Source of the DNA: Spirochaetia bacterium
Lineage (GTDB): Bacteria; Spirochaetota; Spirochaetia; DSM-16054; Sediminispirochaetaceae
Reading direction: 5' to 3'
Length of the DNA stretch: 64,000 bases
Assembly: GCA_034520965.1 (NCBI GenBank)
Contig: JAXHMY010000001.1
Span: forward strand, 832,001-896,000
The notes under the pieces are model-generated. The model was not told the DNA's origin. It did not search any database and worked only from the letters and a program-made list of their open reading frames with translations. How positions within the stretch are numbered: position 1 is the stretch's first letter; every line of letters begins with the position of its first letter. Shown here in pieces: positions 3,685-33,922 of the stretch. The translations under genes and the position numbers were made by a program.

Positions 3685-3857
3685 TTGTTTTTCTCCTTTA
3701 GATATTTTCTACACTCGTTAATTGGGTGCCATCTTCTATTATGGCCCCAATTGTTACTGGAGGTATTTATATCGGCAGTACCGCACCATCTTCTGGTTTC
3801 ATTTTCTTAAGATCCCCGCGCCCCACCGCCGGAGCACAGGACGTGCGGAGGCGGTTC

Positions 3858-18023: not shown

Positions 18024-18113
18024 AGATAATATCTCCTCGTTAATTTAAACTAAATGAAAAGAACTGTTCTATAAATTTCGATGTGAAGCCGGACTTATCA
18101 AGTATGGGCTATC

Positions 18114-18203
18114 GCCTAACGTTACAGAAATATACGAAGTCCGGCTACGCCGCATTTGCCGAAGGCCAAGCCCGTAGGGCGCAGCGCATATTTCTTGTTA
18201 TAA
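18114..18203 (-). repeat. attC-like site (variant stem)
   Basis: GCCTAAC-GTTAC-AGAAATAT...ATATTTCT-T-GTTATAA. Confidence 0.85.
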
Positions 18204-18209
18204 GACGTA

Positions 18210-18497
18210 TTACCTTTTTTGAGTGGTTAATGGGTCAGCTACAGTTTCAGAGTTCTCATAGATATTTTCCGGATCAATATCAATACAGTCATATGGATCA
18301 TAATTTCCAGAAAGATCCCAAGCAAGAGTATTATTCAAAACAGTACATTTGTTTTGAAAATCATCGATATTAGATATTCTAGAGAATACGCCTTTTCCTA
18401 GAAGCGGAGATACATCATATTTTTTTATAATCCCGTCGGAAAAGTAAACAAAAACAGTGAAATCTTTTTGAGGAAGTACTTGTACTACATCATGCAT
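18210..18497 (-). CDS. DUF2442-domain protein (putative antitoxin)
   Basis: VFVYFSDG...YDVSPLL...GVF...LAW...DIDPE. Confidence 0.8.
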   Translation of the reverse strand: MHDVVQVLPQKDFTVFVYFSDGIIKKYDVSPLLGKGVFSRISNIDDFQNKCTVLNNTLAWDLSGNYDPYDCIDIDPENIYENSETVADPLTTQKR

Positions 18498-18507
18498 ATT
18501 GATCTCC

Positions 18508-18768
18508 TTACGTTAAGGGCTCCATCCGATGGATTTCTCCATGTTGTTTTGCGGAATTTCAATTTTGTAAAAGCTCATTTTCATGTAATTCACACCATGC
18601 TAAAACTAGTTTTAATTGTCTAGATGGCAAAGAACCCTTGATAACAACTGCATCATTTATTGACACAAGAGCTTTTTCATTGCCCTATTGAGCATGGAAA
18701 TGAGGAGGTGTATGATCATCCCAATACATATAAATTTTTATTCCGAAAAACTCGCATACTAATGGCAT
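18508..18768 (-). pseudogene. DUF4160-domain protein with two in-frame stops
   Basis: MPLVCEFFGIKIYMYWDDHTPPHFHAQ*G...LLQN*NS. Confidence 0.8.
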
Positions 18769-18822
18769 GTAGACTCCTGTTGTCCATATTATACTAGAAA
18801 ATTTCAAAAAAGGTAATATGTC

Positions 18823-18840
18823 GTATAACTCCCATTAAAT
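18823..18840 (-). repeat. Collapsed 18-bp attC / attI-like junction
   Basis: GTATAAC-TCCC-ATTAAAT; no hairpin body. Confidence 0.6.
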
Positions 18841-18957
18841 GTAGTGCCAGGCATTCTTCTCAGCTCTCCCTAAAGTACACGGATGTACTTTAGGGAATTC
18901 CTTTTCAGCATTTTAAAACTATTAAACGAATATTTTCTGCCAAGTGTAATCCGGGCG

Positions 18958-19404
18958 CTAGACATGTTTTGCTACCTCGTTTTCTACATAGTGCTTAAAT
19001 TCTTTGTTCATATTCTGATATCCAACTGCAGTTTTTGTTATCATTTTTTGCATTAAAAGAATGATAGGGCCTTTAAATTTCTCTATCTGCCGAAATCTTG
19101 TAACCTTATCATCAATATATTCTAGTAAAAACTCATGCATTCCGTTATAGACGAATACCAAGAAGCTACCTCCCCATGATATTCTTTTATTTTGCTCTAT
19201 CTCGTAAATTTTAGGTTTAAAAAACATTTCCTTCATGCCGGGAGACACAACTTTTATAATCATTTTATTTCCAACTTTAAATTCACCTTGAACCATTGGT
19301 ATAAATGAATTCCAGTTCTCCCATGATTTAAAATCGATAAGCATATCCCACACTTCTGATATGGAGGCATTAATATTTATCCAAGAATTTAATTCCCTAT
19401 ACAA
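18958..19404 (-). CDS. SRPBCC/START-fold protein
   Basis: IWINASISEVWDMLIDFKSWENWNSFI, GMHEF, QIEKFKG. Confidence 0.85.
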   Translation of the reverse strand: MYRELNSWININASISEVWDMLIDFKSWENWNSFIPMVQGEFKVGNKMIIKVVSPGMKEMFFKPKIYEIEQNKRISWGGSFLVFVYNGMHEFLLEYIDDKVTRFRQIEKFKGPIILLMQKMITKTAVGYQNMNKEFKHYVENEVAKHV

Positions 19405-19536
19405 TTTGTCTTTCTTTAATAAAACCTTGCCTTCTCTATCTACACTTAAATCTATTGTATTAATTATTGGTCATCCCCTTTATCTTTCCTCGTCGAACCA
19501 TGGAGGGTTCAACACTGCAATTCCGTCTAGCATTAC

Positions 19537-19629
19537 ATTTAACGTCTCGCGAGTACGGAAGTTGGCGACCAACGGGAGCCAATTTAGGCGAAGGCGCTTG
19601 TCGCCGGAGCCGGGTACTCGCTGTTATCG
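19537..19629 (-). repeat. attC-like site
   Basis: ATTTAAC...family body...GTTATCG. Confidence 0.9.
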
Positions 19630-19654
19630 GAAGGTTTTGGTGGTTCATTTCAAC

Positions 19655-19927
19655 TTACATAAGCGCTATCTTAATCTTCTTTCCCAAAGCCTTTGCTACT
19701 TTTTCTATTGTTGATAGTTTGATATCCTCCGAATGATTTTCCATCCTCGATATGACACTTTTTGTTGTATTAATCCTATTTGCTAACTCTTCTTGTGTTA
19801 ACCCGTTTCTTTCTCTTGCTTCTTTTAAGAAAATCCCGATTTTATAATCCTCATAACCTTCCCAAAACTCTTCACCGGATATTCCTTCATTTTTTATTCT
19901 TTTATCTACGTAATCATTGAGGTTCAT
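19655..19927 (-). CDS. XRE-type HTH antitoxin
   Basis: LKEARERNGLTQEELA...SVISRMEN. Confidence 0.88.
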   Translation of the reverse strand: MNLNDYVDKRIKNEGISGEEFWEGYEDYKIGIFLKEARERNGLTQEELANRINTTKSVISRMENHSEDIKLSTIEKVAKALGKKIKIALM

Positions 19928-20276
19928 GTTTTTTCCTCCTAAAATAGTCTGTCTTATAAGTTTCAGCTTTCTTAATTTCATTTCGAGATGTCTTTTGTGT
20001 TTTCTTAATAATTCCATGTGTTATTACAATCAGATTATTCTTATCCCAAAAACTGAATAACCTGTAAATGTTTGTTCCAACCTTTATTCTTACTTCCCAA
20101 ATTCCATTAGTTGATGCCAACTTCTTGAAATAAGTTTTTGGTACAAAATCCATTTCTTCTATTATCTTTAATGTCCATGCAATCTTCTTCACTACACCCA
20201 TCTCGAGGCTATCAAGAAATTCCTCAACAGGACATTTTCCTTTATCAGTTGTATAGAAGATCACTTCTCTATGCAT
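19914..20276 (-). CDS. Gp49-like (DUF891) RelE-superfamily toxin
   Basis: GKCPVEEFL, IWEVRI, HGIIKKTQKT. Confidence 0.88.
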   Translation of the reverse strand: MHREVIFYTTDKGKCPVEEFLDSLEMGVVKKIAWTLKIIEEMDFVPKTYFKKLASTNGIWEVRIKVGTNIYRLFSFWDKNNLIVITHGIIKKTQKTSRNEIKKAETYKTDYFRRKKHEPQ

Positions 20277-20283
20277 AAGAGCA

Positions 20284-20303
20284 TGTTAGCATGCGTGCTA
20301 ACA
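20284..20303. promoter_or_regulatory. Palindromic operator overlapping TA promoter
   Basis: TGTTAGCA-N4-TGCTAACA within TTGAAT-N17-TAACAT; same at about 30790-30809. Confidence 0.65.
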
Positions 20304-20346
20304 ATATTCAAGACATTATTTTAAGCTATTTCCTACCAAAACTTTC

Positions 20347-20482
20347 AGATAACGTCCCGCAAGTACCCGAAGTTGTCCGACCACTTGCTCCGCAAGTGGC
20401 TTGCCATAAAATCTGAGATTTTATGGTCGGGCAATTTGGGCGGAGGCGCTTGTCGCCGGAGCCGGGGTACTCGCTGTTATGC
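20347..20482 (-). repeat. Long attC-like site with two extra internal hairpins
   Basis: AGATAAC...CCACTTGC/GCAAGTGG and CCATAAAATC/GATTTTATGG...GTTATGC. Confidence 0.88.
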
Positions 20483-20731
20483 GATGAATTGTGAAGCGTC
20501 AACAGAACTTTCTTTATAAAGAATTTCGGGATCTAAATCTGCTCCATTTGGCCATTCAATTGTATCGAATTTTACTGATACTGCATTAAATATTGAAACA
20601 TCCCGTAATTCCGAAAAGATCCCGAAATCAAGATAGGGGGAAACATCAAAATACCGTTTCTCATCATTCTCAAAGATAAGTAACAATTTGTAATCTGAAA
20701 GAGTTTTTACATCTTTAACACCCAAATACAT
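20477..20731 (-). CDS. DUF2442-domain protein (orphan copy)
   Basis: Near-identical to 28643-28897; IEWPNGADLDPE. Confidence 0.85.
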   Translation of the reverse strand: MYLGVKDVKTLSDYKLLLIFENDEKRYFDVSPYLDFGIFSELRDVSIFNAVSVKFDTIEWPNGADLDPEILYKESSVDASQFIA

Positions 20732-20771
20732 AAAATCCTCCTTCTTTATTTTTTCTACCTTCACCTGACAA

Positions 20772-21587
20772 TTATTGTTTATTTAGGGTTTTCATGTTTT
20801 TCAACAAGAGTATACTGGAAATTAAACAGCCTGCAGCAATCGGAACCCATAGTGTTAATTCTATGATACTTTCTGACGCACCGGTTTTAAAACCCCAAAA
20901 AGTGGTAGCAGATAATGCAGACAAATAAACAAAACTCTTAACATTCCATATCACAGCCACCACATAACCCCATTGCTGGCGTTTCCAAAGCCAGAAAGCT
21001 CCCAAAAGACCAAGTGAAACAGTTAAAGATAAATCCAATGCTGATATTATGTTGGTACTCTTATCCAGGAGAATGAGAAATTCTGGAATTTGCCCGGTAA
21101 AAACATATTTTAGTGATAAAGATACATGAAAAGCACCTAACAAAACGGATACAATTATCATGTATCCGCTTATTATTTTCGTAGGGGTTTTGGAGCTAAA
21201 CTGATCTGTAACAACTTTTAAATTAAGCGAGGATACTCCAAAAATAAGAGTGTAAATTGAAAGAGTGAATAGTGCAACATAAATCAAAAACAGGCTGTTA
21301 AACGCTGCACCAAACAGATAAAAAGCATAGTTATAGAGAGTGTAAAAGAACATACCTAACAAGACCAACTGCGCTCGTTGTGACCCCCTTTTTGAAAGCA
21401 TCAATGATATGGCTAACATAGGTACAGCTAAAAAAAGCGTTACAAAATCATTCCCATACCATCCGGAAGTAACTAAAAAGTTGTCTTGGTAAAGGTCTTT
21501 GATAAAAATACCTCCCATAGATGCTATGGTTGAGAGAATAATGATTATTACAGACAGTCTAATTGATGTTTTTCGAGTTTTAGTCAT
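20772..21587 (-). CDS. Multi-pass membrane protein of unknown function
   Basis: About 8 hydrophobic segments, RBS GGAGG. Confidence 0.8.
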   Translation of the reverse strand: MTKTRKTSIRLSVIIIILSTIASMGGIFIKDLYQDNFLVTSGWYGNDFVTLFLAVPMLAISLMLSKRGSQRAQLVLLGMFFYTLYNYAFYLFGAAFNSLFLIYVALFTLSIYTLIFGVSSLNLKVVTDQFSSKTPTKIISGYMIIVSVLLGAFHVSLSLKYVFTGQIPEFLILLDKSTNIISALDLSLTVSLGLLGAFWLWKRQQWGYVVAVIWNVKSFVYLSALSATTFWGFKTGASESIIELTLWVPIAAGCLISSILLLKNMKTLNKQ

Positions 21588-21597
21588 AAAGATCCTC

Positions 21598-22365
21598 CTA
21601 TGTATTTAGATGAATAATATATACAGAAAATAGACCAAAAATATTTACTATTGAGTGTATAATCATTGGATAATATATACTTTTCGTTTTCTGAAATACT
21701 ATTGCATAAATTAATCCGAAGCCAAGAGTTGTAACTAATAGCAAGAAATCAATATTTGTTATTGCTATTGTTGGGTAGATGGTATAGTGGATGTGAGCCA
21801 ACGAAAATATTATTGCCGCAATTATACCTGCTTTTGTTATTTCAAATCCAAAAATGTCAGTTTTTTGGCTAAATCCTGCAATAAGTAGTAATTTAATCGG
21901 GAATGCTCTAAATAATAATTCTTCTGAAGGACCAGAAAATAGTCTAAATATAAATTCACCAAATAAGTTTCTATTATTTGTCACATCATAGTACACTTGA
22001 GAAATCATTCCCTTGAAAATACCTAAGTATATTATAAGTATATTGATTAAAAGCCAACCAACTGAAATCCACAAAACACTTTTTATACCTTTCTTTTTAT
22101 TGCCTATCTGAAACCCCCAATCTCTCAGAGGAATCTTTTTGCACAAAACTAAAATAATTACAAGTGGAATCAGAGCTTGCACTAAATGATGTATCATTGG
22201 ATAAACAAAAATTCTGTCTGATTCAATAACTGAAAAAAAAGAAGCAAAATTGTTGGCAACAATTTTCCCTAATTGTGGAGAAAGAATCAAAACAATGATA
22301 ACAAATACTAATAGAGACGCTTTTTTTAACGAGTTTATTTCTTTAACAATATTTTTTCCCTGCAT
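21598..22365 (-). CDS. CPBP (CAAX protease/Abi) intramembrane metalloprotease
   Basis: EELLFR, FSLAH, HSIVN motifs. Confidence 0.88.
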   Translation of the reverse strand: MQGKNIVKEINSLKKASLLVFVIIVLILSPQLGKIVANNFASFFSVIESDRIFVYPMIHHLVQALIPLVIILVLCKKIPLRDWGFQIGNKKKGIKSVLWISVGWLLINILIIYLGIFKGMISQVYYDVTNNRNLFGEFIFRLFSGPSEELLFRAFPIKLLLIAGFSQKTDIFGFEITKAGIIAAIIFSLAHIHYTIYPTIAITNIDFLLLVTTLGFGLIYAIVFQKTKSIYYPMIIHSIVNIFGLFSVYIIHLNT

Positions 22366-22399
22366 TTTTTCTTCCCATATATTTCTTGGTCTTTATTTC

Positions 22400-22493
22400 G
22401 CCTAACGTCCCGCAAGTACTCGAAGTTGGCGACCAGCGGAAGCCAATTTGGGCGGAGGCGCTTGTCGCCGCAGCCGGGTACTCGTTGTTATAC
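22400..22493 (-). repeat. attC-like site
   Basis: GCCTAAC...family body...GTTATAC. Confidence 0.9.
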
Positions 22494-22506
22494 GACGTTA
22501 ATTCTG

Positions 22507-23313
22507 TTATTGGTCGTCTATTTCATAAGATTCCTCCAAGAAATTAAGTACTAATTCATTAAATCTTACTGGATTAACCAGATTTGAAGGATCCATTGAA
22601 TCCTCAATCACAAGTAACTCTATTTTTAATGCATCAGAAATCTTCCTATTAATATCTATAAAGGACTTTCCAAATTGATTTCCAACCATCACCAAACTTG
22701 GTTTATCTATTTCTTTCAATAGAATTAGTAAATCGACCTTATTAATTGCTTTTCTCGCTATTATCATTTGGTCTAAATCCACAGTCAAACTTATTTCTTG
22801 AAAATAGGATTTTGCTTCTTGTGCATAATCTGCTTTATACGTTGAAGCCATACCTTTAGCTAACATCTTTTTTCCTAAGACTTTGAATATTCTAAATCCT
22901 AAAATTTGTGAGTATCCCAACATTCTTTCTTTAAATGATTTTAGTTCACCAAAACTATCTGATATTACCAAATTTGCCAGTTTGTTAGGATAGGTAATAG
23001 CAAAATGTTGTGCAATTACACCACCCATACTCACACCAATCAATGTAGCCTTTTCTATAGATAAATACTCCATTAATTCGGTAATCTGATTTGACCAATC
23101 GTATAAGGATAAATCCTTCATCTTGGATGATTTTCCATGTGTTAGTAAATCCAAAGCAATAACATGATATCCGTTTTCACTAAATATCTTTCTCTGATGT
23201 TTCCACATATTAGTATCTGCACCAATACCATGCAATAGAACCAATGTTGAATTTTGAGGATTACCATATGTTTCATAATAGGTTACCAAATTATTCTTAT
23301 GTCTAAATTCCAT
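22507..23313 (-). CDS. Alpha/beta-fold hydrolase
   Basis: VLLHG, HGKS, GVSMGG nucleophile elbow. Confidence 0.88.
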   Translation of the reverse strand: MEFRHKNNLVTYYETYGNPQNSTLVLLHGIGADTNMWKHQRKIFSENGYHVIALDLLTHGKSSKMKDLSLYDWSNQITELMEYLSIEKATLIGVSMGGVIAQHFAITYPNKLANLVISDSFGELKSFKERMLGYSQILGFRIFKVLGKKMLAKGMASTYKADYAQEAKSYFQEISLTVDLDQMIIARKAINKVDLLILLKEIDKPSLVMVGNQFGKSFIDINRKISDALKIELLVIEDSMDPSNLVNPVRFNELVLNFLEESYEIDDQ

Positions 23314-23353
23314 AGTACACCTTCTTTTATAAATCTATAACAGAATAAATATC

Positions 23354-23447
23354 GTATAACGTTCCGCGAGTACCCGAAGTTGGCGACCAAGGGGAGTCAA
23401 TTTGGGCGGAGGCGCTTGTCGCTGTAGCCGGGTACTCGCTGTTATGG
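23354..23447 (-). repeat. attC-like site
   Basis: GTATAAC...family body...GTTATGG. Confidence 0.9.
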
Positions 23448-23460
23448 GAAGTTTCTGCTT

Positions 23461-23868
23461 TCACCGGAATGAGTGCTTTGATATGTATTCTAATGCTGCA
23501 TGTGTCAAGAATCCTGATCTGGTTTCTCCTTCTAAGTTTGCAAAATTGTCTATCTTTGAAAGTAGTTTCTCTGTAATTGTGATATTGATACGCTTTACAT
23601 TCTCAGAAAGTTTATTCATATCAATTTCGCAGAGCATCCATATATAATTCGGATTATTAAAGGTCGTTTTCAATTCTTCTACACGGGAAGGTGGTGGTAC
23701 AATTTCCTCATCCATCAGTAATCCTTCAATATGTGTAAGTATTGCCTCTTCTGCATTTAAAATTGCTTCATCAACTGTTGCACCTGCGGAAAAACAACCC
23801 TGGAGATCTGGGACAGTGACACCATAGTCTGAAGTTTGCTCTTTTTCTATAAAAATTGGGTATCTCAT
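23461..23868 (-). CDS. hicB: HicB antitoxin (RHH C-terminus)
   Basis: YGVTVPDLQGCFSAG, RINIT, TRSGFL. Confidence 0.9.
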   Translation of the reverse strand: MRYPIFIEKEQTSDYGVTVPDLQGCFSAGATVDEAILNAEEAILTHIEGLLMDEEIVPPPSRVEELKTTFNNPNYIWMLCEIDMNKLSENVKRINITITEKLLSKIDNFANLEGETRSGFLTHAALEYISKHSFR

Positions 23869-24062
23869 ATGTACTCCCTCCAATCAATACCAGCTTGTCT
23901 AAAAATACTCTTTGTAGTACCAATTGGTAGGTCTGATTTTGGATGCGGAACAGTAACTTTTCCGGTTTTGGTATTGTGCTTAAACTGATAATGAGAACCA
24001 CGAATATTATGTACAAACCATCCATCCTTCTTTAGGATTTTGATTATTTCTGAGCTTCTCAT
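23865..24062 (-). CDS. hicA: HicA toxin
   Basis: GW...GSHYQFKH...VTVPHP...PIGT. Confidence 0.9.
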   Translation of the reverse strand: MRSSEIIKILKKDGWFVHNIRGSHYQFKHNTKTGKVTVPHPKSDLPIGTTKSIFRQAGIDWREYI

Positions 24063-24107
24063 GTCTAATAATACACACGATGTGTATAAATGTCAATTGA
24101 TTTAGCA

Positions 24108-25804
24108 AAGCAATTCGAAATGTGAGAAAGCATCGAGAGGGAAGTAACTCTAATATCTCTAACTAGACATTTTATCCTTACTATAGTATAGTGTCCGTAT
24201 GGGAGGGGCCGGATACAGCTTTGCTGTACTGTTACAATTTTTAGAGGACTCAATTACGACATTCCCGGATGTACGCAAAGGGAAGAACACCGTATATGAA
24301 GTACGCGATGCGGTACTATCGGCCTTTTCGATGTTCTTCATGCAATGCCCCTCCTTCCTTGCTCATCAGAGAGCGATGGGCATGAGGAAAGGGAAGAACA
24401 ATGCCGAAAGCATATTCGGTGTTCACAAGATTCCAACTGACACCCATATTCGAAATCTGCTCGATCCAATACCGCCGGAGCTACTATTCCCGGTCTTTGA
24501 CAAGGTCTATGAGTTTCTCCTCACTGAAGGGGTTATCAAGGAGATGATTACCCACGATAATTTACTGTTGATTGCCCTTGATGGGACCTGGTTTTTTTCC
24601 TCCGAGCAGCTCTTCTGTCCCTCCTGCCAAACCAAAACACATAAAAGTGGAAGCGTAACCCATTACCACAGTGCCATTACCCCGGTCATTGTCAGACCAG
24701 GGGTAAACTATGTGGTCGGTCTTCCCTCGGAATATATTACCGTCAATGATGGTGCTACGAAACAGGACTGTGAAAACAAGGCGGTGAAACGGTGGATAGA
24801 GACAATTGGGAGAAAGTACCTGTCGGAACAGCACACTGTTGTACTGTTAGGCGATGATCTGTACAGCAGGCAGCCGGTATGTGAGCACACCATGGCCTCC
24901 GGCTGCAGCTTTATCTATGTATGTAAAACAGCATCACACAAGTATTTATACGAGTGGATCGATGAGTTCACCGCCGAGGATCTGCACGAAAGTTACAAAC
25001 GCATATGGGATGGCAAGAGGCGGCTGACCTATCGCTACCGGTACCGCAACGATGTCCCTCTCAAAGACGGTGATGAGTCGCTGAAGGTAAACTGGATGGA
25101 ACTAACCATCCTGAGCGAAGAGGGGCAGCTGATTAAGCACTTCTCCTTTGTTACCGACATTCCCGTAACTGATACAAATATCGAGGATATGATCTCTTAC
25201 GGTTGAAGCCGGTGGAAGATAGAAAACGGAAACAACAACATTCTCAAGACAAAGGGCTACCATCTGGAACATAACTTTGGCCATGGGGATAAGCATTTAT
25301 CGAACTTCCTGATGACCTTGAACCTTCTTTCCTTCCTCTTTCATACCACTGCCGGGTTGTTCGACAGACGATATATACTACTTCGCAAAACCCTGCCGAG
25401 CCGTCAGACATTCTTTCATGATGCTCAGGCGTTAACCAAATATTTCTTCTATGAAAGTTGGGAGCATCTTCTCAAAACGATGATCATTGGCCTGGAACTC
25501 GAAGACCCGGGCGGATGACCGGTCAACCAAATCCACGCTCTTTTTTGATGTAGAAAGCTCTCCTCACCATCATTCACTCTCAATCTCTCCTCTTTCTACC
25601 TAAAGCTGAGCTCACTGAATTATTTCCCTGAATATGAACTGAACAGAGTTTTAAAGATGATGGAATGTGAGCTTTTCACCATTCACACACTGTGTGAGCT
25701 CTTCAATTTTGGTGCAGGGATTAGCCTCTCCCAACCGCTGTAAAGAAATAAGCCTAGCTGTATCACAGCCTTTACCCGAAATTATGTCACTTTTCGCATT
25801 GCTG
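24108..25804 (+). mobile_element. IS element (ISNCY/IS4-superfamily-like)
   Basis: 9-bp target duplication GATTTAGCA (24099-24107, 25805-25813); imperfect terminal IRs AGCAATTCGAAATGTGA / AGCAATGCGAAAAGTGA. Confidence 0.88.
24199..25518 (+). pseudogene. DDE transposase with in-frame TGA at 25204
   Basis: IALDGT, KQDCE, LGDDLY, G*SRWKIEN; frame continues to 25518. Confidence 0.85.
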
Positions 25805-25821
25805 GATTTAGCAGAAATTTC

Positions 25822-25915
25822 CGATAACGTCCCGCGAGTACCCGAAGTTGGCGACAGACGGGAGCCAATTTGGGCGAAGGCGCTTGTCGCCGCAGCCGGG
25901 TACTTGCTGTTATGT
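25822..25915 (-). repeat. attC-like site
   Basis: CGATAAC...family body...GTTATGT. Confidence 0.9.
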
Positions 25916-25935
25916 GAAGAAGCCTTTTCCTCTAA

Positions 25936-26349
25936 TCATTTTAGAACTATTTCTAATTCTTTATTGAATATTTTGGCTATTTTCTCCAGAGTTTTAACAG
26001 TAGGATTGCATCTTCTTGGATTTTCCAGTCTTTGATATGATTGATAAGAGATACCAAGTTCTTTAGCTAATTCTATTTGACTTTTTTTATCTCTTATTTT
26101 TCTTAGTCGAAGTGCTACTTCAATATGTGGTTTGATATAGATCCGGTGATAGTTTTTGCCTTTATATTCTTGTGGATCCTTTATTTCAAAACCTCTTTCA
26201 AAATCAGATTCGATGCTTCCATTCAATGCTTCTTCAGCATTTTTAATTGCTTCTTCCACGGTTCTTCCATAAGTGTTTATATGTTGAAACTGTGGAAAAG
26301 AAACAATAAAATCATCGTCTTCTTTATCAATCAATGCATAGTAATACAT
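25936..26349 (-). CDS. hicB: HicB antitoxin with C-terminal XRE HTH
   Basis: FIVSFP...TYGRTVEEAI; SQIELAKELGISYQSYQRLE. Confidence 0.88.
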   Translation of the reverse strand: MYYYALIDKEDDDFIVSFPQFQHINTYGRTVEEAIKNAEEALNGSIESDFERGFEIKDPQEYKGKNYHRIYIKPHIEVALRLRKIRDKKSQIELAKELGISYQSYQRLENPRRCNPTVKTLEKIAKIFNKELEIVLK

Positions 26350-26406
26350 ATTAGCTCCTATAAAAAGTCAATCACAAGCTTTCCAGAAAGCTCATAATTT
26401 AGCCGG

Positions 26407-27524
26407 CTATCCGGCCTTTGCGGCATCACATGCTGCCGCCTGCATTTTCAAATACTTTTGAGAGTGCTCCATCCTTAGTGGATCGAAGGACTCTCTGTTT
26501 TTTAGCATCATGTAGATAACCGGTACTCAATTTCCGTGCTGTAGCTATTATGCTCTTCCCGCTACCTTTGTGTTTCTTCATATACTCATAGCGGGTCATA
26601 ACTCTGTACCCGCCGGTTTGTTCTTTTATTTCTGACCATTCCCAATACGCATTGCACCATTGCCGTTCTTATTTCCCTTCGGTCCCCGTTTGGTTATATG
26701 CCCGTGATGGGATCATCTCGTTCTGAGTTCTGTACCCACGGTGCCAGGCCCATATGAGCAGCGAACTTCTTCGGGCTCTCATAACGGTCAATATCATCAA
26801 TAAAAGCCCTCAGTGTAGCAGCAGTTATCAACCCAACTCCGGGAATCGTCTGCAACAACTCTACATCTTTGTCCTCAGCAACCATGCTCTCAAGCACCTT
26901 CTCCAGCTTCTTGACCTGTGCACTAAACTGGTCTAAAGTATCGAAGAGCGGCTTGACCGCTTCGGCAGCGCTTCCGTAAACCTTATGGTCCACGAGACCG
27001 GAAAGGATGCGCTGCCTCTCTTTTTTACTCTGCAGCTGTCCTCTCTTCGTCTCGATCCCATAGCCGAGCAGCATACCGTGAATCTGGTTCTTTATTCCAA
27101 CCAACGCTTTCACCGCTATCGACCTCGTTTTCAATACTCTTCGGATATCCTCACTCGTTTGACTGCACAGCCTCGATTCAGGAAGCATATCCTTCTCCAA
27201 AAACTCCGCAAGTGTTCGTGCATCGTGCTTGTCCGTCTTCTTGACCGACTCGTTGACCACCTTGAACTTCAAGGTGTTTACCACCGTCACTTCAATTCCG
27301 GCACTCAGCAGCCGGTTGCGGAAATAACGGGCGTTACCGGTTGACTCAACCGCCGCATGCACCTCATACCCTGCCTCTACGTACTCGCTACATTTACTGA
27401 GGAACTCTTCATATCCGATTTCTTTTGTCGGATAGATTCCCGTTTCCACTGCTTTCCGGTTTTCCGCCAGAAAACAGACAGTGAATTGGCTCTTGTGCAG
27501 ATCCACTCCAATACTCATCTTCAT
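26407..27524 (-). pseudogene. IS110 DEDD recombinase, several frameshifts in the 3' third
   Basis: IGVDLHK, VESTG, KTDKHDA, TIPGVG, GLAP, ITKRGP, ATARKL motifs. Confidence 0.88.
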
Positions 27525-27741
27525 CGCTTCTCTCCTGTTCTGTTCAAAACAGCTCCGGTTTGGTGAATTGATTCCATTCTCCTATTCGGTCTCGTAGACC
27601 ATTGAATGCTTCGGTTACGGCTCTTCATTCTCCTCTGACGGTTGTAGACCAATAAAAATGCCGAACAGTAACCTGCTGTCTCAAACTAAGTTTGCGACAG
27701 TATATCAATCCACAAAGCTTATGAAGACCTTTTTATCATTC
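27525..27741 (-). ncRNA. Candidate IS110 bridge RNA
   Basis: About 215-nt non-coding end with a 5' hairpin and 7-nt matches to the target flank (AGAGGAG) and the donor flank (ATAGGAG). Confidence 0.55.
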
Positions 27742-27926
27742 CTCCTCTCTATTCCGGCTTGTTTGAGAATTCTCTTTGCTAATCCGATTGGAATCTCTTT
27801 CTTCCCGTGAACTGGTATAGGTATAGATCTTCTCCCTTCCTTGATCATTATATGATGGCTACCAGATATTCTATCTAATACCCAGCCATGGTCTTTTAAT
27901 AATTTTATTAAATCTTTTCCTGTCAT
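27705..27926 (-). CDS. hicA: HicA toxin (C-terminus extended into the IS110)
   Basis: GWVLDRISGSHHIM...PVHGKKEIPIG. Confidence 0.88.
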   Translation of the reverse strand: MTGKDLIKLLKDHGWVLDRISGSHHIMIKEGRRSIPIPVHGKKEIPIGLAKRILKQAGIERRNDKKVFISFVD

Positions 27927-28044
27927 TTTAGATAATTATACAACCTTTATGTTGTATAGTCAATTTTATTAATTTTCTTTTCGAAGGTTTTTTGCGGTAG
28001 TAACCAATTTCCTAATCAAAACTCATATTCTTTAAGGCTTTTTC

Positions 28045-28127
28045 ACATAACGGGGCGGCGGGTATCCGCAGTGGCCAGGTAAAGCCGGAGGCTTGTACGG
28101 GCCATTGAGGATACCCGCCAGTTGTCT
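28045..28127 (-). repeat. attC-like site (variant stem)
   Basis: ACATAAC-GGGGC-GGCGGGTATCC...GGATACCCGCC-A-GTTGTCT. Confidence 0.85.
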
Positions 28128-28208
28128 GAAGTTGCGGAGCAACGGAAGACAGCTGGCGGGCTTGCCCGCCGCTCCGTTCTACAAAAGTGCGAAGCAATTT
28201 TGGACAAC
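28121..28208. other. ORF-less structured mini-cassette
   Basis: 88 bp between two repeats; ends GTTGTC/GACAAC complementary; internal GGCGGGC/GCCCGCC hairpin. Confidence 0.7.
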
Positions 28209-28289
28209 GTTCCGCGAATAGACGAAGTTGGCGACCAACGGGAGCCAATTTGGGCAGAGCGAAGCGTAGCCGGGTACTCGCTGTTATAT
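28202..28289 (-). repeat. attC-like site
   Basis: GGACAAC...family body...GTTATAT. Confidence 0.88.
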
Positions 28290-28513
28290 GACGTTTCGGG
28301 GGCGTTCTTAGACATACTATTTTACTTTGTCTCTGGGAAAAATTGATTTTTATTTCCACAGTTTAGACATACCCCCCTATGAACACATAACAGATTACCA
28401 CACCACCTGGATCAATTAGCATCTTTTTATTCTTAGATTTAATTAAAAATGTATTGTATCCAAAAAATGTTATTTCCATTCTTCACTCTTGCCATATATT
28501 TGGGGGCAATTGC
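28290..28513 (-). pseudogene. Chimeric cassette: 5' stub of an MBL-fold-like gene fused to the 3' end of the DUF3795 cassette
   Basis: MEITFFGYNTFLIKSKNKKMLIDPGG from 28479; 28283-28402 identical to 32292-32411. Confidence 0.75.
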
Positions 28514-28648
28514 ACATAACGTCCCGCAAGTACCCGAAGTTGTCCGACCACTTGCTCCGCAAGTGGCTTGCCATAAAATCTGAGATTTTATGGTCGGGCA
28601 ATTTGGGCGGAGGCGCTTGTCGCCGGAGCCGGGTACTCGCTGTTATGC
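28514..28648 (-). repeat. Long attC-like site (copy of 20347-20482)
   Basis: Same two internal hairpins. Confidence 0.88.
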
Positions 28649-28897
28649 GATGAATTGTGAAGCGTCAACAGAACTTTCTTTATAAAGAATTTCGGGATCT
28701 AAATCTGCTCCGTTTGGCCATTCAATTGTATCGAATTTTACTGATACTGCATTAAATATTGAAACATCCCGTAATTCCGAAAAGATACCGAAATCAAGAT
28801 AGGGGGAAACATCAAAATACCGTTTCTCATCATTCTTAAAGATAAGTAACAATTTGTAATCTGAAAGAGGTTTTACATCTTTAACACCCAAATACAT
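28643..28897 (-). CDS. DUF2442-domain protein (putative antitoxin)
   Basis: VKDVKPLSDYKLLLIF...IEWPNGADLDPE. Confidence 0.85.
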   Translation of the reverse strand: MYLGVKDVKPLSDYKLLLIFKNDEKRYFDVSPYLDFGIFSELRDVSIFNAVSVKFDTIEWPNGADLDPEILYKESSVDASQFIA

Positions 28898-28907
28898 AAA
28901 ATCCTCC

Positions 28908-29174
28908 TTATTGTAATGGATCAATTTTGTAGGGTGATTCACCATTTTGGGCTAATTGCCAATCAGCAAGTAGTTCATCTTTATGTAATTCTGCCCAAGC
29001 TTCTATAAGCTTTATTTGTCGTTTCGGTAGATTGCCTTCAGTCATTTCGCAAATGTTAATATCAAAGATTCCTTTGAAATCCTGATAATATGCATGGAAG
29101 TGAGGAGGGTTATGCTCCTTCTTTCCCAGCTACATTCTAATGACAATTCCAAAAAACATTGAAATAGTAGGCAT
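28908..29174 (-). pseudogene. DUF4160-domain protein with one in-frame TAG
   Basis: MPTISMFFGIVIRM*LGKKEHNPPHFHA...WAELHKDELLADW...IDPLQ. Confidence 0.8.
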
Positions 29175-29229
29175 AGCCTATATTATATCATCTCCTTCCA
29201 TTATAGTCTATTTTGCTTCACAATTTGTC

Positions 29230-29323
29230 GCATAACGTCCCCGGGGTATAAGACGTTTGCCCGCAGGGCAAATGTGCTAAAGGCCAAAGAGCGGAGCGAC
29301 GCCGCATATACCCCATGTTAGAC
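29230..29323 (-). repeat. attC-like site (variant stem, related to 13447)
   Basis: GCATAAC...GGGGTATA/TATACCCC...GTTAGAC. Confidence 0.85.
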
Positions 29324-29372
29324 GATGTCACGAACCTTCTTCAAAGCCAAGCAACATGGATGTTGTTTGGCT

Positions 29373-29696
29373 TTATTCTATTAACATTTCTTGCAGCACA
29401 CTTTTGACGAGTTCAATTTCTTTTTTATTTATTTTCCCAATTTTCTTAATCAATCTTTTCCTATCAACCGTCCTCAATTGATCTAAGACTATCCATCCAT
29501 TTTTTTTTTCAAATTGAAGAGGAACACGTGTTGGATATTTATATGATTTCGTTGTCATCGGGGCTATTATGATTGTCTGGATTGATTCATTCATCTCATT
29601 TGGAGAGATTACCAAGCAGGGGCTTGTCTTTTTTATTTCATGGCCAACAGTTGGATCTAAGTTAATTAAATACACTTCATATTGTTGTATTACCAT
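29373..29696 (-). CDS. mazF: PemK/MazF-family toxin
   Basis: LDPTVGHEIKKTSPCLVISP, APMTT, LDQLRTVDRKRL. Confidence 0.9.
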   Translation of the reverse strand: MVIQQYEVYLINLDPTVGHEIKKTSPCLVISPNEMNESIQTIIIAPMTTKSYKYPTRVPLQFEKKNGWIVLDQLRTVDRKRLIKKIGKINKKEIELVKSVLQEMLIE

Positions 29697-29938
29697 TCCC
29701 ATTCAAAATCGTCCTGCTCATTTAGATTGTCCAGAAATAATGAATCATCACCATTCTTGTGCATCTTCATAAACTCTTCGGGCCATCCTTCTCTTGGCTT
29801 TTTCTTTATTGGTCGAATCAGAATTTCCGTATTATGCACTTCCAACTCTACTTTCTCTTCAATGTTTAATTGTTGTAAAATACTCTTTGGAATCCTAATT
29901 CCTTTTGAATTGCCTATAGGAACCACTGAAACTAACAT
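29690..29938 (-). CDS. mazE: AbrB/MazE-family antitoxin
   Basis: IGNSKGIRIPK, PREGW. Confidence 0.88.
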   Translation of the reverse strand: MLVSVVPIGNSKGIRIPKSILQQLNIEEKVELEVHNTEILIRPIKKKPREGWPEEFMKMHKNGDDSLFLDNLNEQDDFEWEW

Positions 29939-30041
29939 ATTACACCTCAACTAATGTAATTATATAGTAGTTACGTAATTTCGTCAATCTTTTGCTTGCT
30001 AAGGATTGCAAGCTTCTTCTTTCTCTTAGGTTCGTGATTTC

Positions 30042-30135
30042 GTCTAACGTCCCGCGAGTAGCCGAAGTTGACGACCAACGGGAGCCAATTTGGGCGAAGG
30101 CGCTTGTCGCCGGAGCCGGGTACTCGCTGTTATCT
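30042..30135 (-). repeat. attC-like site
   Basis: GTCTAAC...family body...GTTATCT. Confidence 0.9.
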
Positions 30136-30160
30136 GGAGGTTTTGGTGGTTCATTTCAAC

Positions 30161-30433
30161 TTACATAAGCGCTATCTTAATCTTCTTTCCTAAAGCCTTT
30201 GCTACTTTTTCTATTGTTGATAGTTTAATATCTTCCGAATGATTTTCCATCCTCGATATGACACTTTTTGTTGTATTAATCCTATTTGCTAACTCTTCTT
30301 GTGTTAACCCACTTCTTTCTCTTGCTTCTTTTAAGAAAATCCCGATTTTGTAATCCTCATAACCTTCCCAAAACTCTTCACCGGATATTCCTTCATTTCT
30401 TATTCTTTTATCTACGTAATCATTGAGGTCCAT
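30161..30433 (-). CDS. XRE-type HTH antitoxin (copy)
   Basis: Near-identical to 19655-19927. Confidence 0.88.
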   Translation of the reverse strand: MDLNDYVDKRIRNEGISGEEFWEGYEDYKIGIFLKEARERSGLTQEELANRINTTKSVISRMENHSEDIKLSTIEKVAKALGKKIKIALM

Positions 30434-30782
30434 GTTTTTTCCTCCTAAAATAGTCTGTCTTATAAGTTTCAGCTTTTTTAATTTCATTTCGAGATGCCTT
30501 TTGTGTTTTCTTAATAATTCCATGTGTTATTACAATCAGATTATTCTTATCCCAAAAACTGAACAACCTGTAAATGTTTGTTCCAACCTTTATTCTTACT
30601 TCCCAAATTCCATCAGTTGATGCCAACTTCTTGAAATAGGTTTTTGGTACAAAATCCATTTCTTCTATTATCTTTAATGTCCATGCAATCTTCTTCACTA
30701 CACCCATCTCAAGGCTATCAAGAAATTCCTCAACAGGACATTTTCCTTTATCAGTTGTGTAGAAGATCACTTCTCTATGCAT
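30420..30782 (-). CDS. Gp49-like RelE-superfamily toxin (copy)
   Basis: Near-identical to 19914-20276. Confidence 0.88.
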   Translation of the reverse strand: MHREVIFYTTDKGKCPVEEFLDSLEMGVVKKIAWTLKIIEEMDFVPKTYFKKLASTDGIWEVRIKVGTNIYRLFSFWDKNNLIVITHGIIKKTQKASRNEIKKAETYKTDYFRRKKHGPQ

Positions 30783-30852
30783 AAGAGAATGTTAGCATGC
30801 GTGCTAACAATATTCAAGACATTATTTTAAGCTATTTCCTACCAAAACTTTC

Positions 30853-30945
30853 AGATAACGGGCGCGGCTATATGAAGTTTTTGCGTAACGCAGTAAAGCA
30901 AAAATTTGGGTGTTGCGAAGCGTAACCATATAGCTGCTGTTAGCG
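30853..30945 (-). repeat. attC-like site (variant stem)
   Basis: AGATAAC-GGGC-GCGGCTATATG...CATATAGCTGC-T-GTTAGCG. Confidence 0.85.
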
Positions 30946-31014
30946 GCAGTTTTTTCTCTTGACCAATATTTTCACATCTTATTCCAAAAATTGATTTTAT
31001 GCAGATAGATAATT

Positions 31015-32151
31015 CTAATACATAGCTTTTAGAATTTCAGGAATGACCCGATAAGGAACTGCTCCAGCACTTGTTTCATCCACACTACCGCAAAGATACA
31101 GGTCGAGTTGTGGACACCAAAATAGCCAGCAGCCGGTTGAACCAGTGTGCCCGATAACTTCTGGTAACTTCTTCATAGAGGTAAAAATCCTAGGTAGCTG
31201 GAAACGCATCAGTCCCAATCCGTATTCAATAGGCCAACCAGGAGAGCGCAATGAAGCACGGTCTAGAGGTAGCCCAAATCGATTCCAATTATTCTGCATA
31301 ATGTTAAATGTGTCTTTCTTATTAAAAACTTGATTCTGTATTAATTTACGCAAAAAAGCAATCATATCGCGTGTAGTGCTGTAAATGCCTCTAAAAGATT
31401 TCATCAGTTTTGGGATTTGAACAATCTGCCCACCAGCGCGCAGTGGTATTGGCAGCTGAGTTAAGACAAGGGGTTGTGAAAACCCAGGGAAATAGGTGTT
31501 TTTAAGTGACAATGGTTTATAGAGCATGTTTTCGTGAACAATGTGCAATGGCGCATTACAAATCGCTTCAATTAGAGCAATAATGAGGATGTAATTTGTA
31601 TCAGAATAACGCACTTTGATCTTTCGACCTGACGGATTTTGTGGCGGGAAATGCGGTTTTAACTTAATACGGACTATTTCCGCAATGTCTATAAAAGAAA
31701 AAGCCATATCACCTTGTGTCAAGATTTGTTCAACGACGCTTTTACCACCCTTTGGAGAATCTTCTAACCAATCGCCCAGACCAGAGGTGTGCGAAAGGAG
31801 GTGTCGGATTGTAATTTTTTTTGAATAGTCGATTCCCTTGTAAGTGTGCAGTCTATGAAAAAGTTCAGATGGCAAGTAGTCTGAAATAGGGTCGTCCAAA
31901 TTTAACTTGCCCTGCTCACTTAATAACATAATAATGGTAGCGTTAAAAATTTTATCTATACTGGCGATGAAGAAGGGAGAATTAGCATTTACTTGCACAT
32001 CATCTTGATTTATTTCTCCTGCTATACCTGTCCATTGAAAAGATCGATCACTGTTCTCCACAGTCAAAATGGCCTGTTTGATATTTTTTTTTAAAACTAG
32101 GTTATTTAGTACCATTTGGAATGAGTTATTATCAATATTCTTCATTGCCAT
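31015..32151 (-). CDS. Serine hydrolase, beta-lactamase/class C-like family
   Basis: SIDK (SxxK), LLSHTSG, YSDTNY, GHTG. Confidence 0.88.
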   Translation of the reverse strand: MAMKNIDNNSFQMVLNNLVLKKNIKQAILTVENSDRSFQWTGIAGEINQDDVQVNANSPFFIASIDKIFNATIIMLLSEQGKLNLDDPISDYLPSELFHRLHTYKGIDYSKKITIRHLLSHTSGLGDWLEDSPKGGKSVVEQILTQGDMAFSFIDIAEIVRIKLKPHFPPQNPSGRKIKVRYSDTNYILIIALIEAICNAPLHIVHENMLYKPLSLKNTYFPGFSQPLVLTQLPIPLRAGGQIVQIPKLMKSFRGIYSTTRDMIAFLRKLIQNQVFNKKDTFNIMQNNWNRFGLPLDRASLRSPGWPIEYGLGLMRFQLPRIFTSMKKLPEVIGHTGSTGCWLFWCPQLDLYLCGSVDETSAGAVPYRVIPEILKAMY

Positions 32152-32210
32152 TTGCTTTACTCCTCAAATATGCTCATATATTTACGTCTCTTACTGGGAA
32201 AATAAATTGC

Positions 32211-32298
32211 CGCTAACGTTCTGCGAGTACCCGAAGTTGGCGAACAACGGGAGCCAATTTGGGCGGAGCGAAGCGTAGCCGGGTACTCGCTGTTATAT
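32211..32298 (-). repeat. attC-like site (first cassette)
   Basis: CGCTAAC...GCGAGTACCCG/CGGGTACTCGC...GTTATAT. Confidence 0.9.
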
Positions 32299-32330
32299 GA
32301 CGTTTCGGGGGCGTTCTTAGACATACTATT

Positions 32331-32744
32331 TTACTTTGTCTCTGGGAAAAATTGATTTTTATTTCCACAGTTTAGACATACCCCCCTATGAACACATAAC
32401 AGATTACCACACTCGTTACATTTCCATTTTTCTTTCTCTATGTTTATAAATTTAGTCAGTCCTATTTCCTTAATTGTTTTAAGATTTATTATCGGGCTTT
32501 CACCATATTTTGTTGTATATCGTTTATCCAGATTTTTAATTCTTCTACAAGGAAATTTACTGCATTCGGTGCACAACCGTTTTTCATCCCCTTTTTTTTC
32601 AGGACATGATTTTATACTACAAACAGTACAATGGTACGGTTTATTACCTATGCTATTACACCCAACACATTTATTTTTTATTCTTTGGAAGCCTAAACAT
32701 AGATCACATATTACTCCACATGGAGCAATACTAGTGTTATTCAT
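32331..32744 (-). CDS. DUF3795-like cysteine-rich protein
   Basis: APCGVICDLC, CVGC, CTECSKFPC, C-terminal CxxC...CxxC. Confidence 0.8.
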   Translation of the reverse strand: MNNTSIAPCGVICDLCLGFQRIKNKCVGCNSIGNKPYHCTVCSIKSCPEKKGDEKRLCTECSKFPCRRIKNLDKRYTTKYGESPIINLKTIKEIGLTKFINIEKEKWKCNECGNLLCVHRGVCLNCGNKNQFFPETK

Positions 32745-32802
32745 ATTTAATAACTCCTGCTTTTTTCATCTTATAAATCATTTCCATAGCCCCCGAAATG
32801 TC

Positions 32803-32848
32803 ATATAACTCCCAATATCTTGTTCTATCTTGCACTTTTTCACAGCTT
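32803..32848 (-). other. attI-like primary recombination site at the 3' end of the recombinase gene
   Basis: First cassette starts G/TTATATG at 32809 with no preceding hairpin; two CAAGATA direct repeats 10 bp apart (32816-32832). Confidence 0.7.
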
Positions 32849-33922
32849 CTATCCTCCCGGGAGGGTGTCAAAGGGGCTGGTGATATTTTGTACGCTGAGA
32901 TTGCTTACGTGGGTGTAGATTTCGGTGGTACGGGAGCTTTTATGGCCCAGGAGCTCCTGGATGTAGCGTAGATCGGTGCCGTTTTCAAGTAGGTGCGTGG
33001 CGAAGGCGTGACGGAGAGAGTGGAAACTGAGTTGTTTGGTGATTTCGGTGCGCGACAGTGCCCGGTCAAAAATCGCCTGGGCGGAACGGACGGACAGGTG
33101 TTTTGAGAGCTGCTGTCCGGGAAAAAGCCAGCTGTGAAGCATAAAGTTGTTCCGGTACTGGGTGTAGAGAGCCTGTAGGCTGCGCGGAAGGATGGTGTAG
33201 CGGTCCTTATTTCCCTTTGCTGCACGGATATGGAGGAGGCCGCGGTCGAAATCAAGGTCGCCGAGCTTAAGACGGACGACCTCGCTCACGCGCACACCTC
33301 CGGAGTAGGCGAGTGAGAGGAGAAAACGGTGTTTGATGTTGGAGAGGATATCGGGATACTTTCTGCTCATCCGGGGGACGGGAATTGAATCCGCCGGATT
33401 GGGATAGCGCTGCGGGTAGTTTATCCTGAAGAAATGGCGCAATGCGCTTACACAGTGCACCGCGCCGCTGCGAGAGAGCCCTATACTGTCGGCCAGGCTT
33501 TCTAGATAAAGAACTATTCGTTCCCGGGTAACCTGAGCGGGAGGGCAGGCGGTACGCTGGAAAAACCTCCGCACCTGGCTTTCATATACCTGCATTGTGC
33601 TTCTGCTGTAGCCGGCCAGCTGGAGCTCCCGCCACATGGCGGCAAGGCCCGGGGTCAAATCGGGTACTTCAGGGGCTTTAGGTGCTACCCTTTGGGTGGG
33701 GGGCGCTGCTTTTTCGGATTCGGGCAGGCTGAACAGCCCTGTGTGGTGCAGTTTTTTCAAAAGGTCGTCAAGGTTGGACTGGCTGTCGGATATGATCCAG
33801 TGTTCATTAGTGGGATCCCATTGCCGCCCGGGAATGCTTCGCAACAGCTTGACCACACCGGGATGATAAGGAGTCTTTATAATTAAGTGTCCCCTGTGGT
33901 CTCCTCGTATCGAGAGCTGCAT
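32849..33922 (-). CDS. Tyrosine recombinase (integron-integrase-like, lacks I2 insertion; N-terminal HARP-like plus SAM-like domains)
   Basis: GVRVSE, KGNKDR, HSLRHAFATHLLE, LLGH, TEIYTHV. Confidence 0.93.
   Translation of the reverse strand: MQLSIRGDHRGHLIIKTPYHPGVVKLLRSIPGRQWDPTNEHWIISDSQSNLDDLLKKLHHTGLFSLPESEKAAPPTQRVAPKAPEVPDLTPGLAAMWRELQLAGYSRSTMQVYESQVRRFFQRTACPPAQVTRERIVLYLESLADSIGLSRSGAVHCVSALRHFFRINYPQRYPNPADSIPVPRMSRKYPDILSNIKHRFLLSLAYSGGVRVSEVVRLKLGDLDFDRGLLHIRAAKGNKDRYTILPRSLQALYTQYRNNFMLHSWLFPGQQLSKHLSVRSAQAIFDRALSRTEITKQLSFHSLRHAFATHLLENGTDLRYIQELLGHKSSRTTEIYTHVSNLSVQNITSPFDTLPGG

What the first reader, a model, noticed from the sequence alone, without database searches (positions are those of the whole stretch)
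26355..27750. IS110 inserted at a Shine-Dalgarno, with a candidate bridge RNA whose guides match target and donor
Seen (minus strand): the left junction is gaatagagAGGAG-gaatga and the right is tttttatAGGAG-ctaatATG. Deleting the element restores hicA ...QAGIERS* followed by the hicB ATG. The 215-nt non-coding end has a hairpin (CTGTCGCAAAC/GTTTGAGACAG) and two similar modules GGTCTAC..ACC..AGGAGAATG. One module carries AGAGGAG (27630-27636, equal to the target flank) and the next carries ATAGGAG (27579-27585, equal to the donor flank). The circle junction would create TTGACT-N17-TAAAAA. Known: IS110 elements use bridge RNAs with target and donor loops and form junction promoters. Inference: this element is programmed to hit ribosome-binding sites, and its outward -35 may help keep hicB expressed. 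I could not identify the right-hand guides.
Basis: partly seen in the sequence, partly recalled or inferred. Interest (0 to 1): 0.7.

Follow-up and report, generated by a model that had tools for sequence, protein, structure and literature searches.

The report
Jumping gene aimed at gene starts
This mobile element sits between the ribosome-binding site and the start codon of a host gene, as do most of its relatives, and its predicted guide RNA matches both signals, so it likely aims at gene starts and leaves a replacement ribosome-binding site behind; mycobacterial elements were already known to choose such sites.

Summary
Confirmed and extended. A 1,387-nt IS110-superfamily element (26355-27741, minus strand) splits the hicA-hicB junction at AGGAG; a public contig holds the empty site. 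In relatives, 97 of 105 distinct insertion sites of elements with a CAT-starting guide strand have ATG 4-8 nt after GGAG (12-13% of such motifs in this genome). The 3' loop strands covary with the left target and donor. The missing right guides are the 5' loop strands: 27651-27660 is complementary to AG-spacer-ATG, 27604-27608 to the donor. A nested subclade changed both target guides together with its target. End geometry and guide order are IS1111-like, yet the RNA lies upstream of the gene. Not supported: the outward -35 cannot give hicB a transcript with its Shine-Dalgarno; read-through from the hicA promoter is more likely. This genome's second copy lies antisense inside a coding region. 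Transposase frameshifts here are likely assembly errors. IS900/IS901 choose similar sites, and this scan found the same habit before on other DNA. No RNA or activity data. New variant of a known kind.

The parts
26355..27741 (-). IS110-superfamily element, 1,387 nt, counting one copy of the shared AGGAG at its right end
   Evidence: second copy in the genome diverges at the same points; empty-site joint 26354 to 27742 in run X2
27742..27748 (-). left target AGAGGAG (host Shine-Dalgarno inside the last hicA codons)
   Evidence: sequence; same 7-mer left of copy 2
26347..26354 (-). right target: 5-nt spacer plus hicB start codon
   Evidence: sequence
26355..26361 (-). left donor ATAGGAG at the element's right end; replaces the Shine-Dalgarno 5 nt before the hicB ATG
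   Evidence: sequence; same end found in 145 of 163 loci by a pattern built on it
27737..27741 (-). right donor GAATG (start of the left end)
   Evidence: covaries with 27604-27608 in relatives
27726..27736 (-). left sub-terminal inverted repeat (8 bp perfect, 27729-27736); holds the -10-like half TAAAAA (27730-27735) of the junction promoter
26360..26371 (-). right sub-terminal inverted repeat (26360-26369) overlapping the -35-like half TTGACT (26366-26371)
27676..27700 (-). 5' hairpin of the predicted bridge RNA
   Evidence: fold of the window strand, z = -3.65 for 27525-27720
27651..27660 (-). predicted right target guide CATTTTTATT (complement of core AG, A-rich spacer and ATG)
   Evidence: starts with CAT in start-codon-flanked members, changed in retargeted members; ATG-anchored covariation
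27630..27636 (-). predicted left target guide AGAGGAG
   Evidence: positions -5 to -7 covary with left flanks, p = 0.0002
27601..27608 (-). predicted right donor guide; CATTC (27604-27608) is complementary to the donor GAATG
   Evidence: 68 of 76 distinct left ends match exactly
27579..27585 (-). predicted left donor guide ATAGGAG
   Evidence: 61 of 65 match their own right end exactly, including two ATGGGAG pairs
26407..27524 (-). DEDD recombinase gene (D8, E60, D98, D101, S267); frameshifted in this assembly, 370 aa in close relatives
   Evidence: Pfam PF01548 + PF02371, NF033542
27705..27926 (-). hicA toxin gene, now ending inside the element (73 aa)
   Evidence: Pfam HicA_toxin
25936..26349 (-). 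hicB-like antitoxin gene with HTH domain
   Evidence: Pfam HicB_lk_antitox + HTH_3
27935..27963 (-). promoter-like site of hicAB (11 of 12 consensus), likely source of read-through across the element
   Evidence: consensus match only

Best explanation
This is an IS110-superfamily element whose left end is predicted to make a two-loop bridge RNA that likely steers insertion into translation starts. In the target loop the 3' strand copies the Shine-Dalgarno (NNAGGAG) and would pair with the bottom strand; the 5' strand (CAT-T-rich-NNT) would pair with the top strand over the spacer and the ATG, tolerating mismatches and a slip of 1-2 nt. The donor loop reads the element's own junction in the same way. 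Because the right end finishes in ATAGGAG, each insertion rebuilds a Shine-Dalgarno at the original distance from the host start codon and places the element in the host gene's direction. The host gene would then stay translatable on read-through transcripts, and that read-through would also supply recombinase and RNA for excision. Shown: the insertion pattern, the empty site, the covariation, the fold support. Inferred: RNA expression, base-pairing, circle formation, continued hicB expression. Loss of gene-breaking insertions probably sharpens the pattern.
For: 97 of 105 distinct sites of CAT-guide elements have ATG 4-8 nt after GGAG; 50 of 52 copies in six multicopy genomes against 47 of 508 RGGAG motifs in their flanks; 47 of 52 open an ORF of 60 aa or more. 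Left guide positions -5, -6, -7 match in 0.95, 0.96, 0.82 against 0.77, 0.70, 0.34 in permutations (63 guide classes, 110 sites; p = 0.0002). Right guide: positions 2 and 3 before the ATG covary with the target (p = 0.0003 each; 49 classes, 96 sites). CAT is not held by an RNA stem: no compensatory change, two of the four pairs broken in 20 and 37 of 57 rows; both guides are unpaired in the consensus fold. A nested group lost CAT and has CACGGAG-type left guides; its right strands fit their own non-ATG flanks better than the mean CAT guide in 6 of 6 cases, and CAT guides fit their own flanks better than retargeted guides in 102 of 105. Spacers of 5-6 nt in 32 of 44 insertions against 20.8 expected from the hosts' own spacing (p = 0.0004). 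Donor guides covary (68 of 76; 16 of 24 where the donor is not GAATG). Read-through is required and enough for IS621 excision (PMC13626964, passages).
Against: No RNA, circle or transposition data for this clade. The commonest spacer is 6 nt (51 of 97), while unbroken pairing from the core predicts 5 nt; core-anchored right-guide positions do not covary (p = 0.06-0.6). The window site matches only 5 of 8 right positions. Eight of 105 sites miss (three have ATG at 9 nt). The genome's second copy lies antisense in a coding region. The spacing shift comes mainly from two of five hosts. The 8 non-CAT sites include one noisy copy and come from about two lineages, so the Fisher value overstates. Host base composition could add to the right-guide covariation. 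Two non-CAT elements fit their right flank poorly (L007 0.31, L147 0.50).
Confidence: 0.78

Rival explanations
1. Only the Shine-Dalgarno half is read by the RNA. The link to start codons comes from a liking for AT-rich DNA plus loss of insertions that break genes; CAT is kept for a structural or protein-binding reason.
For: Spacers of 5-9 nt are all used and core-anchored positions do not covary; spacing in two of five hosts equals the host's own; half-match insertion is reported for IS621 (10.64898/2026.08.31.748434, abstract); copy 2 is not at a gene start.
Against: CAT changes exactly where the target changes while its possible RNA partner stays AATG; ATG-anchored covariation; spacing is shorter than the hosts' overall; selection would have to remove nearly all insertions at the 87-91% of motifs without an ATG.
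Confidence: 0.17
2. The element keeps hicB expressed through its outward -35, forming a hybrid promoter with the flank.
For: TTGACT faces outward at the right end.
Against: It ends 11 nt before the element end; a -10 at 17 nt spacing overlaps the hicB ATG, so the transcript would lack the Shine-Dalgarno and the start codon. The scan lists no such promoter, but a strong one upstream of hicA and no sense-strand terminator in the element.
Confidence: 0.04
3. The matches are chance or merely reflect an element-derived AGGAG at both ends.
For: AGGAG is shared by both junctions, and my junction patterns asked for a GGAG-like word.
Against: Boundaries in six multicopy genomes were seen by divergence alone; the empty site holds one AGGAG; covariation lies outside the shared letters.
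Confidence: 0.01

Closest known systems
IS621 / ISCro4 bridge recombinases (Durrant 2024 PMC11208160: abstract, parts 1-2 of 14, passages, supplement search; Hiraizumi 2024 PMC11208158: passages)
   Same: DEDD + Tnp recombinase, RNA in the left end with a 5' hairpin and two guide loops, promoter formed across the circle junction, core reads CT on the opposite strand.
   Different: Guide order relative to the gene is reversed; 8-10 bp sub-terminal repeats instead of 2-3 bp; target is a translation start, not a REP; only the C-terminal half aligns well (84.6 bits).
IS1111 group: ISEc11, ISKpn4, ISPa11, IS5075 (Siddiquee 2024 PMC11187229: parts 2-3 of 9, passages, supplement search)
   Same: Top-strand match lies 5' of the bottom-strand match; sub-terminal inverted repeats with 7-nt left and 3-nt right extensions (69 of 77 end pairs; IS5075 control shows the same).
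   Different: RNA is upstream of the gene (that paper names ISMtsp17 as such an exception); repeats are shorter when counted perfect; SN in place of the SG/TG motif; 370 aa; only 80 bits to IS5075.
IS900 / IS901 of Mycobacterium avium (seen only through passages and reference titles in PMC2942039 and PMC8141618; Doran 1997 and Inglis 2003 not read)
   Same: IS110-family elements that insert between Shine-Dalgarno and start codon.
   Different: IS900 has a host-expression-dependent ORF on the strand opposite its transposase, so its transposase runs against the host gene (inferred); here the recombinase runs with the host gene and the element supplies the replacement Shine-Dalgarno. Sequence kinship to IS900 was not tested.

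Membership tests
IS110 superfamily (bridge recombinases) | PF01548 DEDD domain plus PF02371 domain with catalytic serine | tested here: met
   D8, E60, D98, D101, S267 invariant in 28 relatives
IS110 superfamily (bridge recombinases) | non-coding end folding into two internal loops whose strands covary with target and donor | tested here: met
IS110 superfamily (bridge recombinases) | RNA is expressed and bound by the recombinase | not testable with these tools
   only contigs available; run X12 is a guessed RNA run and holds a diverged relative
IS110 superfamily (bridge recombinases) | circular intermediate with junction promoter | tested here: inconclusive
   geometry fits (17 nt), -10 is weak; no right-to-left joint in four runs of contigs
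IS110 group (IS621 type) | RNA in the left end | tested here: met
   217-nt left end, 52-nt right end
IS110 group (IS621 type) | bottom-strand guide 5' of top-strand guide; no long sub-terminal repeats | tested here: not met
   order reversed; perfect repeats of 6-13 bp, mostly 8-10
IS1111 group | sub-terminal repeats with 7-nt left and 3-nt right extensions | tested here: met
   69 of 77 distinct end pairs
IS1111 group | repeats usually 11-13 bp, near perfect | tested here: inconclusive
   perfect length 8 in the window, 10 most common, longer with mismatches
IS1111 group | top-strand match 5' of bottom-strand match | tested here: met
   definition
IS1111 group | long non-coding region downstream of the gene | tested here: not met
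   RNA is upstream
IS1111 group | GL-P----S(t)G motif and full-length kinship to IS1111 | tested here: not met
   GLxPWVQNSN; profile scores 80 bits for IS5075 and 85 for IS621; outgroups on long branches in a quick tree, so placement is open
IS900-like start-site elements | insertion between Shine-Dalgarno and start codon | tested here: met
IS900-like start-site elements | transposase opposite to the host gene, with a host-dependent antisense ORF | tested here: not met
   recombinase and host gene share a strand in the ATG-flanked sites
IS900-like start-site elements | sequence kinship to IS900 | not tested

The most novel reading that the evidence does not exclude
A widespread clade of RNA-guided elements has a guide that encodes a functional signal, the translation start (Shine-Dalgarno, A/T spacer, ATG), reads it with a sliding register, and pairs this with a donor end that is itself a Shine-Dalgarno. 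Insertion is then nearly silent for the host gene, feeds the element with host read-through, and regenerates the target so that elements and mini-elements stack at gene starts. It also forms a third architecture: IS1111-type ends and guide order with an upstream RNA.
Probability: 0.55. Interest if true: 0.7.

Novelty: new variant of a known kind. Interest (0 to 1): 0.52.

Why it matters
It gives a readable RNA-level cause for a target habit known since IS900, and shows how a selfish element can insert at hundreds of sites per genome while likely sparing the genes it hits. For genome editing it points to a bridge RNA that tolerates a 1-2 nt slip on one arm, and to a natural tool for placing DNA in front of start codons. 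A cultured carrier exists (Thiospirochaeta perfilievii plasmid pSpe), so the test is direct. The general mechanism is known and the scan has met this clade's habit before, which limits the score.

Tried and rejected
Rfam: nothing above gathering score in 25000-29000. Single-strand MFE fold pairs CAUU(U) with (G)AAUG and buries part of the guides; the alignment does not support that helix. Handshake dinucleotides: no clear covariation with target or donor. Left guide positions -8 and -9: no covariation. Core-anchored right guide: none. Outward hybrid promoter for hicB: rejected on geometry. RNA evidence: run X12 is only guessed to be RNA and holds a relative with 46 differences; not used. No circle joint seen in four runs of contigs; contigs cannot show absence. 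Placement in the IS110 or IS1111 group by protein: unresolved (quick tree only). Literature: searches found no paper on bridge-RNA targeting of ribosome-binding sites; term searches in PMC11208160, 10.1101/2025.05.14.653916 and 10.1101/2025.10.25.684509 found no Shine-Dalgarno or ribosome mention. A relative of this recombinase is an unnamed row in Supplementary Table 1 of PMC11208160. Two files of that supplement were cut and one was unreadable, most subscription papers and ISfinder/TnPedia were not searchable, so prior description cannot be excluded.

Full report
Observation. The element spans 26355-27741 on the minus strand between hicA and hicB (Pfam). A contig of run X2 joins 26354 to 27742 with five letters fitting both sides, which is the empty site. 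The recombinase ORF stops at 276 aa here, but relatives at 93-94% identity have 370 aa, and the five extra bases are missing from near-identical contigs in runs X1 and X2. The genome's second copy is full of indels. I read these breaks as likely assembly errors. The same runs shorten the target strand to the usual 9 nt and restore the inner hairpin.

Data set. I gathered 166 loci (the metagenome scan kept 80 of 212 hits) and dropped three duplicates or fragments, leaving 163. Left junctions were found in 141, right junctions in 145, target loops in 126 plus 14 by a looser pattern. The patterns ask for GGAG-like words, so GGAG itself is not evidence; boundaries in six multicopy genomes were first seen by divergence alone.

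Where it inserts. Of 129 distinct right flanks, 105 belong to elements whose 5' target strand starts with CAT: 97 have ATG 4-8 nt after GGAG (5 nt: 21, 6: 51, 7: 13, 8: 11, 4: 1). Of 16 without a parsed loop 15 have it; of 8 non-CAT sites none. Background: 1,109 of 8,393 AGGAG and 79 of 639 AGAGGAG in this genome; 47 of 508 RGGAG in the flanks of the multicopy hosts, against 50 of 52 insertions, 47 of which open an ORF of 60 aa or more. Record titles name spirochaetes, Thermodesulfobacteriota and a few others. Against a strict rule: this genome's second copy sits at AGAGGAG but antisense inside a PAS-domain coding region.

Left guides. Guide positions -5, -6, -7 match the flank in 0.95, 0.96, 0.82 of cases against 0.77, 0.70, 0.34 after permutation among 63 guide classes; -8 and -9 do not. 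The classes are related, so the p-values overstate. The donor guide matches the right end in 61 of 65.

Right guides. The 5' strand of the donor loop is the reverse complement of the first five donor bases in 68 of 76 distinct ends, including 16 of 24 whose donor is not GAATG (the pattern constrained some letters). The 5' strand of the target loop reads as the complement of core, A-rich spacer and ATG. Four results favour a real guide. (a) CAT has no compensatory partner in the RNA and both strands are unpaired in the consensus fold, while the scaffold helices covary. (b) A group nested in the clade changed both strands together with its target, a CACGGAG/CACAGAG-type repeat. (c) Bases 2 and 3 before the ATG covary with the guide. 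(d) Insertion spacers are shorter than the hosts' own: 32 of 44 at 5-6 nt against 20.8 expected; five of five copies of the main G240 element at 5 nt; 12 of 15 at 6 nt in G401. Against: unbroken pairing predicts 5 nt but 6 nt is commonest, core-anchored positions do not covary, two of five hosts show no shift, and the retargeted sites come from about two lineages.

Architecture. The top-strand match lies 5' of the bottom-strand match, the order reported for IS1111 elements (PMC11187229), and 69 of 77 end pairs show sub-terminal repeats with 7- and 3-nt extensions, as does IS5075. But the RNA is upstream of the gene and the serine motif reads SN. By protein the clade is one group (support 97 in a quick tree) far from both IS5075 and IS621. 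It works like a bridge-RNA element; it passes neither group's full test.

Effect at hicAB. The right end rebuilds ATAGGAG 5 nt before the hicB ATG. The outward -35 cannot give a transcript that includes this site. A promoter-like site upstream of hicA matches 11 of 12 and no sense-strand terminator was found in the element, so read-through is the likely source of hicB mRNA; this is inferred. For IS621, read-through is needed for excision (PMC13626964, passages), which would reward sense-strand insertion at gene starts. Since the site is rebuilt it can be hit again: 4 of 95 left junctions follow a mini-element with the same left-end pattern.

What is known. Insertion between Shine-Dalgarno and start codon is cited for IS900 and IS901 (passage in PMC2942039; title in PMC8141618; originals not read). 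Nine paper searches found no account of a bridge RNA that encodes this target (see Tried and rejected); cut or unreadable supplements may bear on that. Nine earlier notes of this scan hold the same words, eight were shown; none turned up for the IS1111-type reading.

Verdict. Real, well supported by comparison, untested at the bench. New variant of a known kind; interest 0.52.

Noticed in passing
window 18000-33922: The hicAB cassette lies in an integron-like array: seven copies of a roughly 110-nt repeat, several toxin-antitoxin pairs and a 357-aa tyrosine recombinase at 32849-33922 that scores below the integron-integrase cut-off.
   Followed up: partly
L001:4152-5578 (G000:C1 about 48150-49577): Second copy of the element, antisense inside a PAS-domain sensor gene; the assembly there has many indels.
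   Followed up: yes
L005, L042, L043, L049 (upstream of the left junction): Mini-elements of 108-165 nt with the same left-end pattern and a rebuilt Shine-Dalgarno lie directly upstream; the full element sits at their right end. By eye also L019, L048, L051, L066.
   Followed up: partly
L145, L147, L150, L151, L154, L159, L162, L164, L166: Nested subgroup naturally retargeted to a CACGGAG/CACAGAG-type repeat; its right ends are longer (about 140-170 nt by the offset).
   Followed up: partly
L009, L013, L017, L020, L023, L026 (G289): A distant relative (36% identity) also sits at AAAGGAG before ATG in 6 of 6 copies, with T-rich spacers and an A-rich 5' guide strand and a 3-nt longer donor arm.
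   Followed up: partly
L024, L104, L140-L142, L074: Extra hairpins inserted into the guide loops of some members (seen).
   Followed up: no
window 24199-25518: A 335-aa ORF with a downstream piece, without Pfam or NCBIfam hit, that looks like another transposase by recall; it interrupts the array on the plus strand.
   Followed up: no
window 19558-19857 / 30064-30363 and 20343-20746 / 28510-28912: Cassette-sized duplications at 97-98% identity within the array.
   Followed up: no
L168, L169, L170; L002 about 3830-3930: Three other IS110-type recombinase genes or pieces and a 96-nt fragment of this element elsewhere in the genome.
   Followed up: no
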